64,000 bases of DNA from Anaeromyxobacteraceae bacterium. Lineage in GTDB: Bacteria > Myxococcota > Myxococcia > Myxococcales > Anaeromyxobacteraceae. How positions within the stretch are numbered: position 1 is the stretch's first letter; each line of letters starts with the position of its first letter. The notes beneath the pieces are model-generated. The model did no database searches. It was given only the letters and a program-made list of their open reading frames with translations, and had not been told where the DNA came from. Both the position numbers and the translations under genes were made by a program. The stretch lies in assembly GCA_047602405.1 (NCBI GenBank), contig JASGHJ010000002.1, positions 1,568,001 through 1,632,000 of the forward strand, given 5' to 3'. Positions 18,056-23,595 of this stretch are shown here, one piece after another.

Positions 18056-18727
18056 ATGGCCATCCCAGCGCGCGACGCGGCCCGCCTCGAAGGCGGCAGC
18101 ACCCCGGACGGTGCGGCTCGATCGCTCGAGCACGCCCTCAGGTCGGAGGCCCTGGCCACCGTGGCCGCAGGCGTGGCGCACGACGTGAAGAACCCGCTCA
18201 ACGCGATGGCCCTGCAGGTCGCGCTCCTGGGCGAGAAGCTCGGCGACGCCGCCAACGCGGCGGGGCACCTCGCCGCGATCCGGGAGCAGATCGGGCGGGT
18301 CAACGAGGTGGTGCGGCGGCTCCTCGACGTCGTCGACCCCTCGGGTCCCCTGGGGCTCGACGTGGGCGCGCTGCTCCGCGACGCGGCCGCCCTGCTCGGG
18401 CACGAGGCGCGGCGGCGCCGGGTGGCCGTCCAGCTCGTGGTGCCCGACGGGGCGGTGCGGTGCGGCGGTGATCCGGCCCGCATCGGGCGGCTCGTGCTCG
18501 CGGTGGTCGCCGCCACCGTGGCGGACGTCCCGGACGACGGCCGCGTGGAGGTCCGGGTCCGGCGCGAGGGCCGCGAGGTCCTGGTCGAGCTCGCGCGGTC
18601 GGGCGGCGCGCCCGGGCCGGGGCTCACCGCGCTCGCCGCGGCGGAGCCGGGCGGCGCCCTCGCGATCCACGAGGGCGCCGAGGGCGTCGTGATCACGATC
18701 GGATTCGAGGGGGAGGAGCGGCCATGA
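18056..18727 (+). CDS. HisKA (DHp) domain protein with degenerate ATPase domain
   Basis: GVAHDVKNPLNAM H-box; no recognisable N, G1, F or G2 boxes; no sensor domain. Confidence 0.75.
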   Translation: MAIPARDAARLEGGSTPDGAARSLEHALRSEALATVAAGVAHDVKNPLNAMALQVALLGEKLGDAANAAGHLAAIREQIGRVNEVVRRLLDVVDPSGPLGLDVGALLRDAAALLGHEARRRRVAVQLVVPDGAVRCGGDPARIGRLVLAVVAATVADVPDDGRVEVRVRREGREVLVELARSGGAPGPGLTALAAAEPGGALAIHEGAEGVVITIGFEGEERP

Positions 18728-20117
18728 GCTTCCGGGTCCTCATCGTGGACGACGAGCCGGACAGCCTGACCGCCCTCGCGGAGCTCTGCCAGCGCTGGGG
18801 CTACGAGGTGCAGACGGCGGGCGACGGGCACGAGGCGCTCCGGCGCGCCATCGAGCGCCACCCCGACGTGATCCTCACCGACCTCGTCATGCCCAACATG
18901 GACGGGCTCTTCCTCCTGCGCGCGCTCCGGGCGGAGCTGCCGGACTCGGCGGTGGTCCTCCTCACCGGGCGGGGGACCATCCAGACCGCCGTCCAGGCGA
19001 TCAAGGAGGGCGCGTACGACTTCATCGAGAAGCCGCTCGAGGTGGCGCGGCTGCGGCTCGTGCTCGAGCGGGCCCTCGAGAAGAAGGAGACGCTGCGCGA
19101 GGTCCAGGTGCTGCGCCGGCGGCTCGCCGCGCTCGCGCCGGGCACGGAGGTGATCGGCTCGGGCCCCGCGATGCGGAAGGTGTTCGACCTCGTGCAGCGG
19201 GTCGCCTCCTCGAACGCGAGCGTCGTCATCACCGGCGAGAGCGGGACCGGGAAGGAGGTCGTGGCGCGCGCCATCCACAACCTCTCCCCGCGCAAGGAGA
19301 AGGCCTTCGTCGCGCTCAACTGCTCGGCCATCCCCTCGACGCTCATCGAGTCGGAAGCTCTTCGGCTACGAGCGCGGCGCGTTCACCGGCGCGGAGCAGC
19401 GGCGGGTGGGGAACTTCGAGCTCGCCCACGGCGGGACGCTGTTCCTCGACGAGATTGGCGAGCTGCCGCTCGAGCTGCAGGCGAAGTTCCTGCGGGTCCT
19501 CGAGGAGCGGAAGATCCGGCGCCTGGGCGGGCGGTCGGAGGTGGACGTCGACGTGCGGGTGCTCTGCGCGACCAACCGCGATTCTCAAGGAGGAGGTCCG
19601 GGTGGGCCGCTTCCGCGAGGACCTCTTCTTCCGGCTGCAGGTCTTCTCGATCGTGCTCCCGCCGCTCAAGGACCGGCGGGAGGACGTCCCGCTCCTCGTC
19701 CACCACTTCATCGAGAAGTTCAACGCGGAGACCGGCAAGCACGTGCAGGGCGTCACCCCCGGCGCGCTGGCGGTCCTGCAGGGCTACGCCTGGCCCGGGA
19801 ACATCCGCGAGCTCCGCAACACCGTGGAGCGCGCGATGATCCTCTCGGACGGCGACGTGCTCGGCGAGGAGCACCTCCCGCCCGACATGCCGCTCGCCCG
19901 GGCCGAGACCGCGGTGCTGCGGGTGCCGCTCGGGCTCGAGCTCGACCAGGTGGAGCGGGAGTACATCCTCGCGTCGCTCCAGCGGAACGGCGGCAACAAG
20001 GCCCGCACCGCGGAGGCGCTCGGGATCAGCGAGAAGACGCTCTACAACAAGCTCAACCGGTACGCCTCCGAGGCCCGCGATTGCGCCGCCGGCGAGGCGG
20101 CGGGGGCGAAGGCCTGA
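18724..20117 (+). CDS. sigma54-dependent NtrC-family response regulator (frameshifts at ~19355 and ~19582)
   Basis: Receiver domain (DD..D..MP..K), [21 protein letters not shown] split across frames, [10 protein letters not shown], Fis-type HTH. Confidence 0.9.
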
Positions 20118-20142
20118 GCGTCACGGGGCGTGGCCCCCGTGC

Positions 20143-21444
20143 CTACGCGAGCGTCGGCGCGACCGCGACCCGGCCCCGGCCGGCGCGCTTCGCGGCGTAC
20201 AGCGCCGCGTCGGCCGCGCGCACCAGCGCCTCGGCGGAGACCCCGGTGCCGCCGGAGGGCAGGCACGCGACCCCGAACGACGCGCCGACGGTGACCCGCC
20301 GCTCGGCGAGCTCGAGCGACGCCGAGCCGAGCCGCGCGCAGATGCGCTCCGCGAGCACGCGCCCCTCCTCGGCGGTGGTGTGCGGCAGGAGCACCACGAA
20401 CTCGTCGCCGCCGTAGCGGGCGCCGAAGTCGGTCTCGCGGAGCTCCTCGCGGATGACCGCGGCCACCGCGGCGATGGCGCGGTCGCCGGCGGCGTGGCCG
20501 AGCGAGTCGTTGATGGGCTTCAGCTCGTCGAGGTCGGCCATCACGCAGGTGAGCGGGGTGAGGTAGCGGTGTGCCCGCTTGACCTCCTCGTCGACCCGGG
20601 CGCGGAACGCGCGCAGGTTCGCGAGGCCGGTGAGGGCGTCGGTCTGGGCGAGCGCCCGCAGCGCGGACTGGCTGCGCACGAAGCGCAGGGTCCGGTCGAC
20701 GCGCGCGCGGAGCTCGCGGTCGGAGAAGGGCTTCTGCAGGTAGTCGACCGCGCCGAGGTCGAGGCTGCGCACCTTGATGGCGTCGTCGCCTTGGCCGGAC
20801 ACGAAGAGCACCGGGATGTCCGCGGTGGAGGGGTCGGCGCGGAGGCGCTCGAGCACGCCCAGGCCGTCGAGCCGCGGCATGAAGAGATCGAGCAGCACGA
20901 CGTCGGGGCGCTCGTCCCGCGCGAGCTCGAGCGCCGTCTCGCCGTCGGGGGCGGCGAGGACCTCGTAGTCGGGCTCGAGCGCGAGCTGGAGCGCCTCGCG
21001 CGCGTCGAGCTCGTCGTCGGCGACGAGCAGGCGGGGGCGGGGGCCCACCGGCCGGGGCGCGCGGCGGGCCGGGCGCGCGTCGGTGGCGGGGCGCAGCGCC
21101 CGCTCGAGGTCCTCGGCGAGGCGCCGCAGCCGCGCGGCCTCGTCCTGGAGCGCCTGCTCCCCCGCCGCGCCGTCGGCGACGCCGCCGGCGAGGCGCTGCG
21201 CGGCGGCCGAGAGCTCGGCCGCCGCGGAGGCGACCAGCGCCTCCCGGCGGTGGCCCAGCTCGCGCAGGCGGCGGTTCGAGTCGGCGAGCTCGGTCAGGGC
21301 GGCGGGGAGGAGGACGCGCAGGCGCTCCGCGCGCGCCGCCGGCGGCAGCGCGGCGAGCCCCTCGAGCTCGGCGAGGAGCGCGGCGAGCGGGTCGGCGGCC
21401 GCGTCGGGCGCGGGCCGCGGGAGGCTGTCGGTCGGACCGCGCAT
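20143..21444 (-). CDS. response regulator diguanylate cyclase (coiled coil-REC-GGDEF)
   Basis: LVADD..LLDL.MP..KPF receiver; TDALTGL.N, D.D.LK.IND..GH..GD, RYGGDEF. Confidence 0.9.
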
Positions 21445-21584
21445 GGACGGCTCGGGTTCCCCCTGCAACATGGCGCCTGCCGTCCCCCTGGGCAGCAGGC
21501 CCGGGACAACGTACCGCCTGCCGCCTCGCCGGGTGAACCGCCGGACCACGGGACGCGGCGAGGGGATGGCGCTATACCGGGGGC

Positions 21585-21809
21585 ATGCCGGAGACCGTCG
21601 AGATCTACGGGAAGGACACCTGTGGCTACACCAGCGCCGCACGTGCGGACTACGCCGCCCGCGGTCGCCAGGTCACCTACTTCAACGTGAAGAAGGACCC
21701 CGCGGCGATGAAGCGGTTCCTCGAGCTCTCGGGGGGCGACCGCCGGGTGCCGCTCATCGTGGAGCGGGGCCGGATCTCCATCGGGTTCGACGGGACCTGA
21801 ACGGTCTAG
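21585..21809 (+). CDS. glutaredoxin-like selenoprotein of the Uxx-star type (TGA 21798-21800 read as Sec; ends G-T-U-T-V-stop)
   Basis: Grx fold (IYGKDTCGYT, RRVPLIV, IGF); TGA-ACG-GTC-TAG followed by a SECIS-like hairpin. Confidence 0.8.
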
Positions 21810-21810
21810 C

Positions 21811-21828
21811 CGCTCCCGGTCGGGAGCG
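21811..21828 (+). promoter_or_regulatory. bacterial SECIS-like hairpin
   Basis: CGCTCCC-GGTC-GGGAGCG begins 11 nt after the UGA, with a G-G-U apical loop. Confidence 0.7.
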
Positions 21829-21846
21829 TCGCCTCGGGGGGAGGGC

Positions 21847-22575
21847 TCAGTTCCGGCCGTAGAGCGCGCGGCGGTTGCCGCGCATGCTCGGGCCGAGCGG
21901 CGTCGGCGGCCGCTCGAGGTGGAACTGGAACCACTCGTTGCCGTACGTCTTGCCGAGCTTCAGCTTCTTGCCGTTCTGCAGGGTCTGCAGCGTCGAGGCG
22001 AGGCGCTCGTCCTTCGGGAGGACCGTGGCGCCGCGGCCGGCCACCTTGATCGCCTCGTCGTGGCGCCCGGCGTCCTCCAGGATCCACGCGTACACGCTCC
22101 AGAGCAGGCTCTCCTTCTTCGACACCTTCGCGGCCTCCTCGAGTGCGGCGACGGCGCCCTGCACGTCCTTCTTCTTGTAGCGCGCGGCGGCGAGCATCCC
22201 GCGCGGCACCCACTGGCGCACCCAGCTCTTCTCGAGGTGCGGCGTGGCCGCGTCGAAGTCGCCCTTCACGTAGAGGATCTGGCCGATGGCCGCGTGGAGC
22301 TGGGCGCCGGTCAGGAACTGCCAGCGCTCGAATGCGAAGCCGGTCTTGAGGACGGCGATCGCCTTGTCGAAGCGCGGGGGCTGGACCGAGAGCTCCTTCT
22401 GCATCTCCTCGAAGACGCGCTCGAGCTGCTTCCCGGAGCGGCGGGCGAGCAGGATGTACGCGGCGACGCCCGCGACGAGCGCCGGGACGATGGCGGCGAC
22501 CCACCCGAAGCCACCGAGGGCCACGGCGGCGGCGACGACGACGGTGATCGCGAGGCTGATGAGGAGGTTGTACAT
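21847..22575 (-). CDS. membrane-anchored TPR protein
   Basis: Two N-terminal TM helices, then TPR-like helices (GQILYVKGDFDAA..LEK; GRHDEAI.V). Confidence 0.75.
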   Translation of the reverse strand: MYNLLISLAITVVVAAAVALGGFGWVAAIVPALVAGVAAYILLARRSGKQLERVFEEMQKELSVQPPRFDKAIAVLKTGFAFERWQFLTGAQLHAAIGQILYVKGDFDAATPHLEKSWVRQWVPRGMLAAARYKKKDVQGAVAALEEAAKVSKKESLLWSVYAWILEDAGRHDEAIKVAGRGATVLPKDERLASTLQTLQNGKKLKLGKTYGNEWFQFHLERPPTPLGPSMRGNRRALYGRN

Positions 22576-22654: not shown

Positions 22655-22739
<85 letters not shown>

Positions 22740-23295: not shown

Positions 23296-23595
23296 CTACT
23301 TCTTCTCGCCGCCGGTCCCGCCCGTCGCGGGGGCCGGGGAGGGCTTCGCGTCGGCGCCGCCGCCCGGCGGCGAGGGCGCGGCCTCCGCCTTCGGCTTCGC
23401 CTTGCCGGCGCCGGCGCTCGCGTAGAGATCGGAGTACCAGCCTCCGCCCTTGAGCTGGAAGCTCGTGCGCGAGACGAGCTTCGAGAGGCGGGCCTCGCCG
23501 CAGCCGGGGCACGCGCCGGGCGGCGGGTCGCTCACCTTCTGCATCACCTCGGTGAGCCGGCCGCACGCCTCGCAGACGTATTCGTAGATGGGCAC
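23296..23595 (-). CDS. FmdB family zinc-ribbon regulatory protein
   Basis: MPIYEYVCEACG..CPGCG..LVS.TSF.LKG.GWY. Confidence 0.9.
   Translation of the reverse strand: MPIYEYVCEACGRLTEVMQKVSDPPPGACPGCGEARLSKLVSRTSFQLKGGGWYSDLYASAGAGKAKPKAEAAPSPPGGGADAKPSPAPATGGTGGEKK

What the first reader, a model, noticed from the sequence alone, without database searches (positions are those of the whole stretch)
21585..21828. Hidden selenoprotein: UGA-X-X-stop with a SECIS lying beyond the stop codon
Seen: the 71-aa glutaredoxin-like ORF appears to end at TGA 21798, but continues ACG GTC TAG, and a 7-bp hairpin with a GGUC loop begins 11 nt after the UGA. Established: bacterial SECIS elements lie just 3' of the UGA with G(G)U in the apical loop, and Uxx-star glutaredoxin-like proteins end in U/C-x-x-stop. 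Inference: the product ends GFDGT-Sec-TV, with Sec pairing with the N-terminal CGYT Cys. The SECIS falls in the 3' UTR, free of coding constraint. The ORF track truncates the protein.
Basis: partly seen in the sequence, partly recalled or inferred. Interest (0 to 1): 0.7.

Follow-up and report, generated by a model that had tools for sequence, protein, structure and literature searches.

The report
Known UXX-star selenoprotein, SECIS past stop
A small glutaredoxin-like gene that looks as if it ends at a TGA stop very likely reads that codon as the rare amino acid selenocysteine and runs two residues further, likely guided by a conserved RNA hairpin just beyond the true stop; the call is sound but ordinary, because the protein belongs to an already catalogued family.

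Summary
Confirmed, but a known family. The ORF at 21585 runs through TGA (21798) into ACG GTC TAG, with a 7-bp GGUC hairpin at 21811-21828, 17 nt from UGA to loop. Read through, the 74-aa protein scores 107.7 bits on NCBIfam NF041114, 'UXX-star selenoprotein family 1' (cut-off 72). The genome holds selA, selB, selD and tRNA-Sec. All 40 of 40 orthologous loci examined end TGA-x-x-stop with a hairpin 16-24 nt on, and its stem covaries. A homologue with a real TGC codon there ends C-S-V-stop. Residue 13 is Cys here but TGA in 18 of 40 orthologues, so this is a one-Sec form of a two-Sec family. The Cys13-Sec72 pairing is only plausible: one AlphaFold model puts the tail in a strand that likely pairs beside the conserved Pro56, and a second model, of a natural Cys homologue, leaves it disordered. 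The family and a SECIS beyond the stop are both in print. The scan found this family earlier in another genome (e1-2398170). No protein-level evidence was obtained.

The parts
21585..21809 (+). Full gene of the 74-aa UXX-star family 1 selenoprotein, ATG to the true stop TAG
   Evidence: NF041114 107.7 bits over model positions 1-70 of 70 when read through, 99.9 bits over 1-67 when cut at TGA
21621..21623 (+). Cys13 codon (TGT) of the C-G-Y-T active-site motif; TGA in 18 of 40 orthologues, TGC in 20, TGT in 2
21639..21645 (+). Likely decayed remnant of a coding-region SECIS motif for position 13: one base off the 7-nt motif kept by 18 of 18 Sec13 orthologues and 0 of 22 Cys13 ones
   Evidence: the reading as a remnant is inference
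21747..21752 (+). Val55-Pro56, the position of the thioredoxin-fold cis-proline loop; Pro56 is invariant in the 70-sequence alignment (cis geometry not checked)
   Evidence: fold matches
21798..21800 (+). In-frame TGA, predicted Sec72
   Evidence: TGA in 40 of 40 orthologous loci; TGC in homologue L081
21801..21806 (+). Two sense codons after Sec (Thr73, Val74); the last residue is Val in 39 of 40 orthologues and Ile in 1
21807..21809 (+). True stop codon TAG (TAG in 14, TGA in 26 of 40 orthologues)
21811..21828 (+). SECIS-type hairpin, 7-bp stem with GGUC loop, wholly in the 3' untranslated region

Best explanation
This is a 74-residue glutaredoxin-fold protein of UXX-star family 1 whose TGA at codon 72 is very likely read as selenocysteine, likely by SelB binding the GGUC hairpin just past the stop codon, and it is predicted to work as a small thiol/selenol redox protein in which the Sec72 tail would fold back on Cys13. 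Shown: the sequence layout, the family match, the Sec machinery in the genome, conservation of TGA-x-x-stop and of the hairpin, and Cys-for-Sec exchange at both positions 13 and 72 across homologues. From established knowledge (bacterial SECIS model, PMC13188914 section 5): SelB-GTP-Sec-tRNA is delivered by a hairpin whose loop lies 16-37 nt after the UGA, so a Sec two residues from the C-terminus must have its SECIS beyond the stop. Inferred: the protein has a C-x-x-T motif without a resolving Cys and lacks the last helix of glutaredoxins; in its place the short tail would lie in the substrate groove beside Pro56, so that Sec72 resolves Cys13 as an intramolecular Se-S bond (Se-Se in the two-Sec orthologues), probably re-reduced by thioredoxin reductase as in NrdH-type redoxins. 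The substrate is unknown. Odds: Sec insertion about 0.97; redox cycling of the Cys13/Sec72 pair about 0.55 (the confidence given).
For: Family: NF041114 107.7 bits (cut-off 72) and NF041212 87.5 (cut-off 66); the three extra residues complete the model. Machinery: selA 514 bits, selB 292, selD 400 with its own in-frame TGA, tRNA-Sec(TCA). Conservation: 40 of 40 distinct loci have TGA at this codon, two sense codons, then a stop, and a hairpin of -8.8 to -17.4 kcal/mol with its loop 16-24 nt after the UGA; the loop is GGTC in 31 of 40. Covariation on 35 of those 40 rows: 87.4% of cells paired against 39-53% for slid partners, 5 of 7 pairs with changes on both sides, 0 of 500 shuffles reaching the covariation score. 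Co-occurrence: selA found in 43 of 44 genomes with the gene; the exception G207 (580 contigs) has tRNA-Sec at 77.3 bits; the gene is in 1 of 12 genomes without selA, that same G207. Cys homologues: L081 has TGC then S-V-TAG and no GGUC hairpin after it; 8 of the 149 newly listed representatives end in an aligned C-x-x; 78 of 80 loci of a sister branch have TGC/TGT there. All 120 of 120 listed database homologues stop at the same column, as expected from gene callers cutting at TGA. Fold: glutaredoxin/NrdH-like, Z 9.6 with rmsd 2.0 over 67 residues to 7c10_A, aligned over residues 2-70 only. Model 1 shows two short strands, at 54-55 and 72-73. Thioredoxin reductase is present (408 bits). Neither glutathione synthetase model passes its cut-off (TIGR01380 best 57 bits against 299; TIGR01435 no match).
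Against: No protein or translation evidence; the RNA runs laid were uninformative. The second model, of the natural Cys homologue P0140, leaves residues 69-72 disordered (pLDDT under 50) with no such strand. In model 1 the pairing of 54-55 with 72-73 is read from the secondary-structure string only (no coordinates or distances were available), Sec was folded as Cys, and 61 of the 70 alignment rows lack the tail. Three of five longer RNA stretches prefer folds that break the hairpin. Of the covariation measures, the two that count pairs or pair types were reached by 36 and 44 of 500 shuffles, and the rows are kin. My loose hairpin finder also returned stems of -7.5 kcal/mol or better after 7 of 22 ordinary Cys13 codons, so it is not specific by itself. 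Genomes for the selA count were picked partly for having the gene, and 25 of 68 selA-positive genomes had no orthologue found. The review suggests metal binding for this family instead.
Confidence: 0.55

Rival explanations
1. Sec72 is inserted, but Cys13 (or Sec13) and Sec72 bind or hand over a soft metal or metalloid, or serve metallocentre assembly, and do not cycle as a disulfide reductase.
For: PMC13188914 says Sec in the UXX-star family may act as a metal-binding ligand (passage). Two database homologues carry an N-terminal extension, one an ArsR-type metalloregulator domain (P0189). The all-Cys sister branch from Acidobacteriota lies next to hypF or hypB in 70 of 80 loci and next to a GmhA-like gene in 77 of 80, a hydrogenase-maturation setting. 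A zinc-ribbon protein in the same genome has the same U-x-x-stop end.
Against: Here the gene lies between a divergent receiver-GGDEF gene and a convergent TPR gene (kept in 30 and 34 of 40 loci), and hypF and hypB are on the other contig. The fold and the conserved Val-Pro loop are those of thiol oxidoreductases. The hyp-linked branch is a separate subfamily, below the NF041114 cut-off.
Confidence: 0.27
2. Sec72 is inserted but does not react with Cys13 of the same chain: the tail is a flexible arm that reacts with another protein or a second copy, as the C-terminal Sec arm of animal thioredoxin reductase does (comparison recalled, from no call).
For: The tail is disordered in model 2. The linker before Sec is Gly-rich (G67 and G70 invariant). 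Tail length is free in the sister branch, where only 1 of 78 ends two residues after the Cys.
Against: Model 1 orders the tail. Positions 13 and 72 both switch between Cys and Sec, which fits one shared site. The protein has no second Cys to resolve Cys13.
Confidence: 0.15
3. TGA 21798 is the real stop, and the hairpin is a transcription terminator or 3' stabilising stem between two convergent genes.
For: The hairpin lies in the 37-nt gap before the stop of the convergent TPR gene (ends at 21847). All 120 listed database homologues end at this column.
Against: No terminator-like site (0 found). TGA is fixed in 40 of 40 loci while the downstream stop varies between TAG and TGA, and the residue before that stop is Val or Ile in 40 of 40. 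The hairpin is kept in the 6 loci where the TPR neighbour was not found. Homologues have true Cys codons at this position. An unrelated gene in the genome has the same layout and loop.
Confidence: 0.03

Closest known systems
UXX-star selenoprotein family 1 (NCBIfam NF041114; 'Distant Grx-like protein 1' in the table of PMC13188914, motif UxxT, 2 Sec, listed as predicted)
   Same: Scores 107.7 bits against a cut-off of 72 over the whole model; same length, same U-x-x-stop end; RefSeq/GenBank Anaeromyxobacter homologues at 72-78% identity carry this name.
   Different: One Sec only: the N-terminal motif is C-x-x-T, not U-x-x-T. That form is common among relatives (22 of 40), so it is no new variant.
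Uxx-star superfamily (NF041212), with families 2 (NF041211), 3 (NF047338) and the HUGP fusion (NF045501)
   Same: 87.5 bits on NF041212 (cut-off 66).
   Different: Below the cut-offs of families 2 and 3 and of the fusion (50.8/100, 52.9/97, 48.5/325).
Small glutaredoxins and NrdH-redoxin (7c10, 3zij, 1h75, 3grx)
   Same: Same core fold, Z 9.1-9.6, rmsd about 2 over 66-67 residues; active-site Cys at the start of helix 1; Val-Pro loop.
   Different: No C-x-x-C; the chain ends after the fourth strand with a short Sec tail where these proteins have a last helix (recalled for the solved proteins; alignments stop at residue 70); identity 23-28%.
SaoC Cys-Sec-COOH selenoproteins (10.1101/2022.07.06.499078)
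   Same: Sec at the extreme C-terminus, with a proposed 7-bp SECIS stem lying beyond the stop codon (passage): printed precedent for a bacterial SECIS in the 3' untranslated region.
   Different: Unrelated protein; Sec is the last residue, paired with the adjacent Cys.

Membership tests
[quoted passage not shown] | Whole-protein score above the curated cut-off of 72 bits | tested here: met
   107.7 bits, residues 5-74 on model 1-70
[quoted passage not shown] | C-terminus Sec (or Cys)-x-x-stop | tested here: met
   TGA ACG GTC TAG; 40 of 40 orthologous loci
[quoted passage not shown] | N-terminal (U/C)-x-x-T motif on a glutaredoxin fold; the review lists U-x-x-T with two Sec for its example | tested here: met
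   C13-G-Y-T16 (Cys form; 18 of 40 orthologues have Sec); PF00462 29.3 bits; fold
Bacterial selenoprotein gene | Sec machinery (selA, selB, selC, selD) in the genome | tested here: met
Bacterial selenoprotein gene | SECIS by the consensus model: 3-9 nt loop, 4-16 bp stem, G in the first two loop positions, 16-37 nt spacing, energy at most -7.5 kcal/mol | tested here: met
   4-nt loop GGUC, 7 bp, 17 nt, -12.8 kcal/mol; criteria from PMC13188914 section 5
Bacterial selenoprotein gene | TGA aligns with Cys codons in homologues | tested here: met
   L081 TGC; 78 of 80 sister-branch loci TGC/TGT
Bacterial selenoprotein gene | Selenium shown in the protein; SelB binds the hairpin | not testable with these tools
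   needs 75Se labelling, mass spectrometry or a binding assay
Classical dithiol glutaredoxin (TIGR02181) | C-x-x-C active site and score above 90 bits | tested here: not met
   C-G-Y-T; 32.4 bits
Classical dithiol glutaredoxin (TIGR02181) | Glutathione-dependent reduction | tested here: inconclusive
   no glutathione synthetase over the cut-off with two models in a 98% complete genome; other routes or uptake not tested
Intrinsic terminator | Hairpin followed by a run of T | tested here: not met
   0 sites on either strand in 21400-22000

The most novel reading that the evidence does not exclude
The Sec-x-x-COOH tail is a built-in, tethered stand-in for glutathione: it replaces the last helix, enters the groove beside the cis-proline where a glutaredoxin binds the cysteine of glutathione, and resolves Cys13, giving a one-chain glutaredoxin system in a bacterium with no canonical glutathione synthetase found. 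The residue after Sec is Gly in 27 of 40 orthologues, as after Cys in glutathione. The 26 of 40 orthologues that use UGA for Sec and again three codons later for stop would be a natural ruler for the minimum UGA-to-SECIS distance. Two paper searches for the family's names found only one review, which does not give this mechanism in the passages seen; Haft and Tolstoy 2025 could not be read.
Probability: 0.3. Interest if true: 0.55.

Novelty: new member of a known kind. Interest (0 to 1): 0.2.

Why it matters
For annotation: ordinary gene callers cut this protein three residues short and so drop one of its only two sulfur/selenium residues; all 120 listed database homologues are cut at the same place. 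For biology: the family is catalogued from sequence only, and I found no experimental work on it. This 74-residue one-Sec form is an easy test case for what a C-terminal Sec tail does on a glutaredoxin fold, and its SECIS can be mutated without touching the protein. None of this is a surprise to a selenoprotein specialist.

Tried and rejected
Rfam at gathering scores found only 6 tRNAs in the window and no SECIS model match. Single-sequence folding z-scores of the longer stretches were not significant. Terminator and promoter scans: 0 and 0. The hairpin is not a repeat: its 16-nt core occurs once in the genome. Expression: three soil metatranscriptome runs with word shares of 0.04-0.06 were laid at 85% likeness; they gave short pieces, mostly of relatives, with nothing spanning the stop and hairpin, so they are no evidence. 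A fold for the position-13 SECIS was not shown: only 2 of 18 Sec13 orthologues gave an unbroken stem of -7.5 kcal/mol or better, so that motif rests on sequence alone. A DNA tree of the 40 loci needs 4 changes of the Sec13 label, with Sec13 rows at the base under midpoint rooting; the codon and its motif were left in the alignment, long branches meet, and no direction was tested, so 'Sec13 was ancestral' is only a suggestion. No solved structure aligned over the tail among the top rows. The hairpin after the selD TGA has no G at the start of its loop by eye; not pursued. Haft and Tolstoy 2025 (mSystems, PMC12013261) is not held and may already describe the features noted here. Passages of PMC2398784, PMC13326102 and PMC12013277 gave nothing on this family; their supplements were not read and may list it. 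No complex prediction was run, since no binding is claimed.

Full report
1. Observation. The window reads ATG at 21585, 71 codons ending G-F-D-G-T, TGA at 21798-21800, ACG GTC, and TAG at 21807-21809. A perfect 7-bp stem with a GGTC loop spans 21811-21828; 17 nt separate the UGA from the loop. The hairpin alone folds at -12.8 kcal/mol and is the best fold of the intergenic stretch 21810-21846, but 3 of 5 longer stretches prefer folds that break it. Among 16,000 sampled genomic TGA triplets, 191 have a comparable stem at 16-37 nt and 64 at 16-22 nt; the 16-nt core is unique in the genome.

2. Family. Read through, the protein scores 107.7 bits on NF041114 (UXX-star selenoprotein family 1, cut-off 72) over model positions 1-70; cut at TGA it scores 99.9 over 1-67. 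It is below the cut-offs of families 2 and 3 and of true glutaredoxins. Homologues at 72-78% identity are named UXX-star family 1 proteins of Anaeromyxobacter; with a G+C content of 74% the host is likely a close relative. The review PMC13188914 (seen: abstract, section 5 whole, passages of section 7 and references) lists the family among predicted selenoproteins with motif UxxT and two Sec, and suggests a metal-binding or unknown role.

3. Machinery. The genome (2 contigs, 98.4% complete) has selA, selB and selD over their cut-offs, selD with an in-frame TGA, and a tRNA-Sec with anticodon TCA. Of 80 other genomes, chosen partly for having the gene, 44 have an orthologue; selA was found in 43 of the 44, one of them only as a partial match. 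The exception, G207, is in 580 contigs, lacks selB over the cut-off but has a tRNA-Sec at 77.3 bits. Of 12 genomes without selA, only G207 has the gene. 25 of 68 selA-positive genomes have no orthologue found. Kin are not independent, so this is a pattern and not a statistic.

4. Comparative test. The gene was found in 22 of 41 near relatives including this genome and over the cut-off in 37 of 301 genomes of the phylum. I read 40 distinct loci, dropping 11 duplicate fetches and one distant non-orthologue (L029); five further matching genomes were given no locus. All 40 have TGA at the codon matching 72, two sense codons, then a stop (TGA 26, TAG 14). The last residue is Val in 39 and Ile in 1; the one after Sec is Gly in 27. 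All 40 have a hairpin with its loop 16-24 nt after the UGA, GGTC in 31. On 35 of these rows (near-duplicates left out) the stem is paired in 87.4% of cells against 39-53% when partners are slid, 5 of 7 pairs show changes on both sides, and 0 of 500 shuffles reach the covariation score, though the two pair-counting measures were reached by 36 and 44 shuffles. RNAalifold independently finds the same stem. Sequence 3' of the hairpin is not conserved. All 120 listed database homologues end at the column before the TGA.

5. Cys homologues. A profile search gave 1,473 hits, 150 listed. Among the 149 new ones, 8 end in an aligned C-x-x, and others carry the Cys with a longer tail; five of the Cys-bearing ones tested pass the family 1 cut-off. 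To rule out Sec written as Cys in those records, I fetched DNA: L081 has TGC followed by S-V-TAG and no GGUC hairpin, while the other two loci of that scan have TGA. In a sister branch from Acidobacteriota, 78 of 80 loci have TGC or TGT at this position, and tails vary in length, with only 1 of 78 ending two residues on. That branch sits beside hypF or hypB in 70 of 80 loci and a GmhA-like gene in 77 of 80.

6. Position 13 is TGA in 18 of 40 orthologues. All 18 carry one fixed 7-nt motif 16-22 nt after that codon, and 0 of 22 Cys13 orthologues do; this gene differs from the motif by one base and keeps its CGT codon. This is an internal control: a downstream element tracks the TGA codon within one gene family. 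It suggests the gene lost an N-terminal Sec, but I did not show a fold for the motif or the direction of change. In 26 of 40 orthologues the true stop is also TGA, nine bases after the Sec codon and so only 7-15 nt from the loop, below the 16-nt minimum of the consensus model; the same codon would be read both ways by distance alone (inference).

7. Mechanism. The predicted fold is a minimal glutaredoxin core (mean pLDDT 84), closest to 7c10, 3zij and NrdH 1h75 at Z 9.1-9.6 over residues 2-70 (Foldseek agrees). The chain ends after strand 4. In model 1, residues 54-55 and 72-73 are the only two short strands, which suggests the tail pairs beside Pro56. In glutaredoxin-glutathione complexes the cysteine of glutathione binds at that place, next to the active-site Cys (recalled, from no call). 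Model 2, of the natural Cys homologue P0140, leaves the tail disordered, so the contact is not replicated. The genome has thioredoxin reductase and no glutathione synthetase over the cut-off with two models. I commit to a redox protein with a Cys13-Sec72 pair (0.55). Rivals are metal binding or metallocentre assembly (0.27), a free Sec arm acting on another chain (0.15) and a plain stop (0.03). The neighbours, a divergent receiver-GGDEF gene and a convergent TPR gene (kept in 30 and 34 of 40 loci), give no operon clue.

8. Novelty. The family is curated and reviewed. A SECIS beyond the stop follows from Sec lying near the C-terminus and was already proposed for SaoC (10.1101/2022.07.06.499078; passages seen). 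The scan reported the same family in another genome (e1-2398170). Searches for the family's names found one paper, and I saw no experimental study; Haft and Tolstoy 2025, a likely main source, is not held. Verdict: a correct call, a new member of a known family, interest 0.2. The tethered-glutathione reading of the tail is the one part that could matter (probability 0.3, interest 0.55).

Noticed in passing
G000:C2:1292644-1292865 (+); L059:345-566; outside the window: A second, unrelated gene with the same layout: an FmdB-type zinc-ribbon protein (TIGR02605, PF09723) ending C-G-P-I-G-U-G-I-stop, with a 7-bp GGUC hairpin beyond the stop. Found in 19 of 41 genomes; 16 of the 20 loci were parsed, all 16 with TGA and a GGTC-type hairpin, 15 ending U-x-x-stop. 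No match in the four selA-negative genomes of the genus that were searched. The review lists FmdB selenoproteins with a UxxU motif, so this C-terminal Sec site may be an unlisted form.
   Followed up: partly
G000:C1 about 253795-254469 (-); L060:399-1070; outside the window: MerB-like alkylmercury lyase protein (PF03243, 95 bits) with an in-frame TGA and a 7-bp GGUC hairpin 19 nt on, inside the coding region; candidate selenoprotein with T-U where SaoL has C-U.
   Followed up: partly
L084-L163: An all-Cys branch of the Uxx-star superfamily in Acidobacteriota lies between a GmhA-like gene and hypF or hypB, a possible role in hydrogenase maturation. One paper search on these four terms gave one listing, PMC5445863, not read.
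   Followed up: partly
P0189, P0218: Uxx-star domains fused behind an N-terminal extension: an ArsR/SmtB metalloregulator domain in P0189, an unnamed 110-residue part in P0218.
   Followed up: no
window 22655-22739 (-): tRNA-Leu(CAA) upstream of the convergent TPR gene; no link to the selenoprotein seen.
   Followed up: no
window 18724-20117 (+): A receiver plus sigma-54-type activator gene appears spread over overlapping ORFs in different frames (18724-19839, 19406-20416, 19455-20117), suggesting frameshifts or sequencing errors; the domain reading is by eye.
   Followed up: no
window 23296-23595 (-): An ORF with two C-x-x-C motifs that looks like another FmdB-type zinc ribbon (by eye), with no TGA readthrough examined.
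   Followed up: no
L004:1531 (selD, G000:C2): The stem after the selD Sec codon seems to have no G in the first loop positions, unlike the GGUC hairpins (by eye).
   Followed up: no
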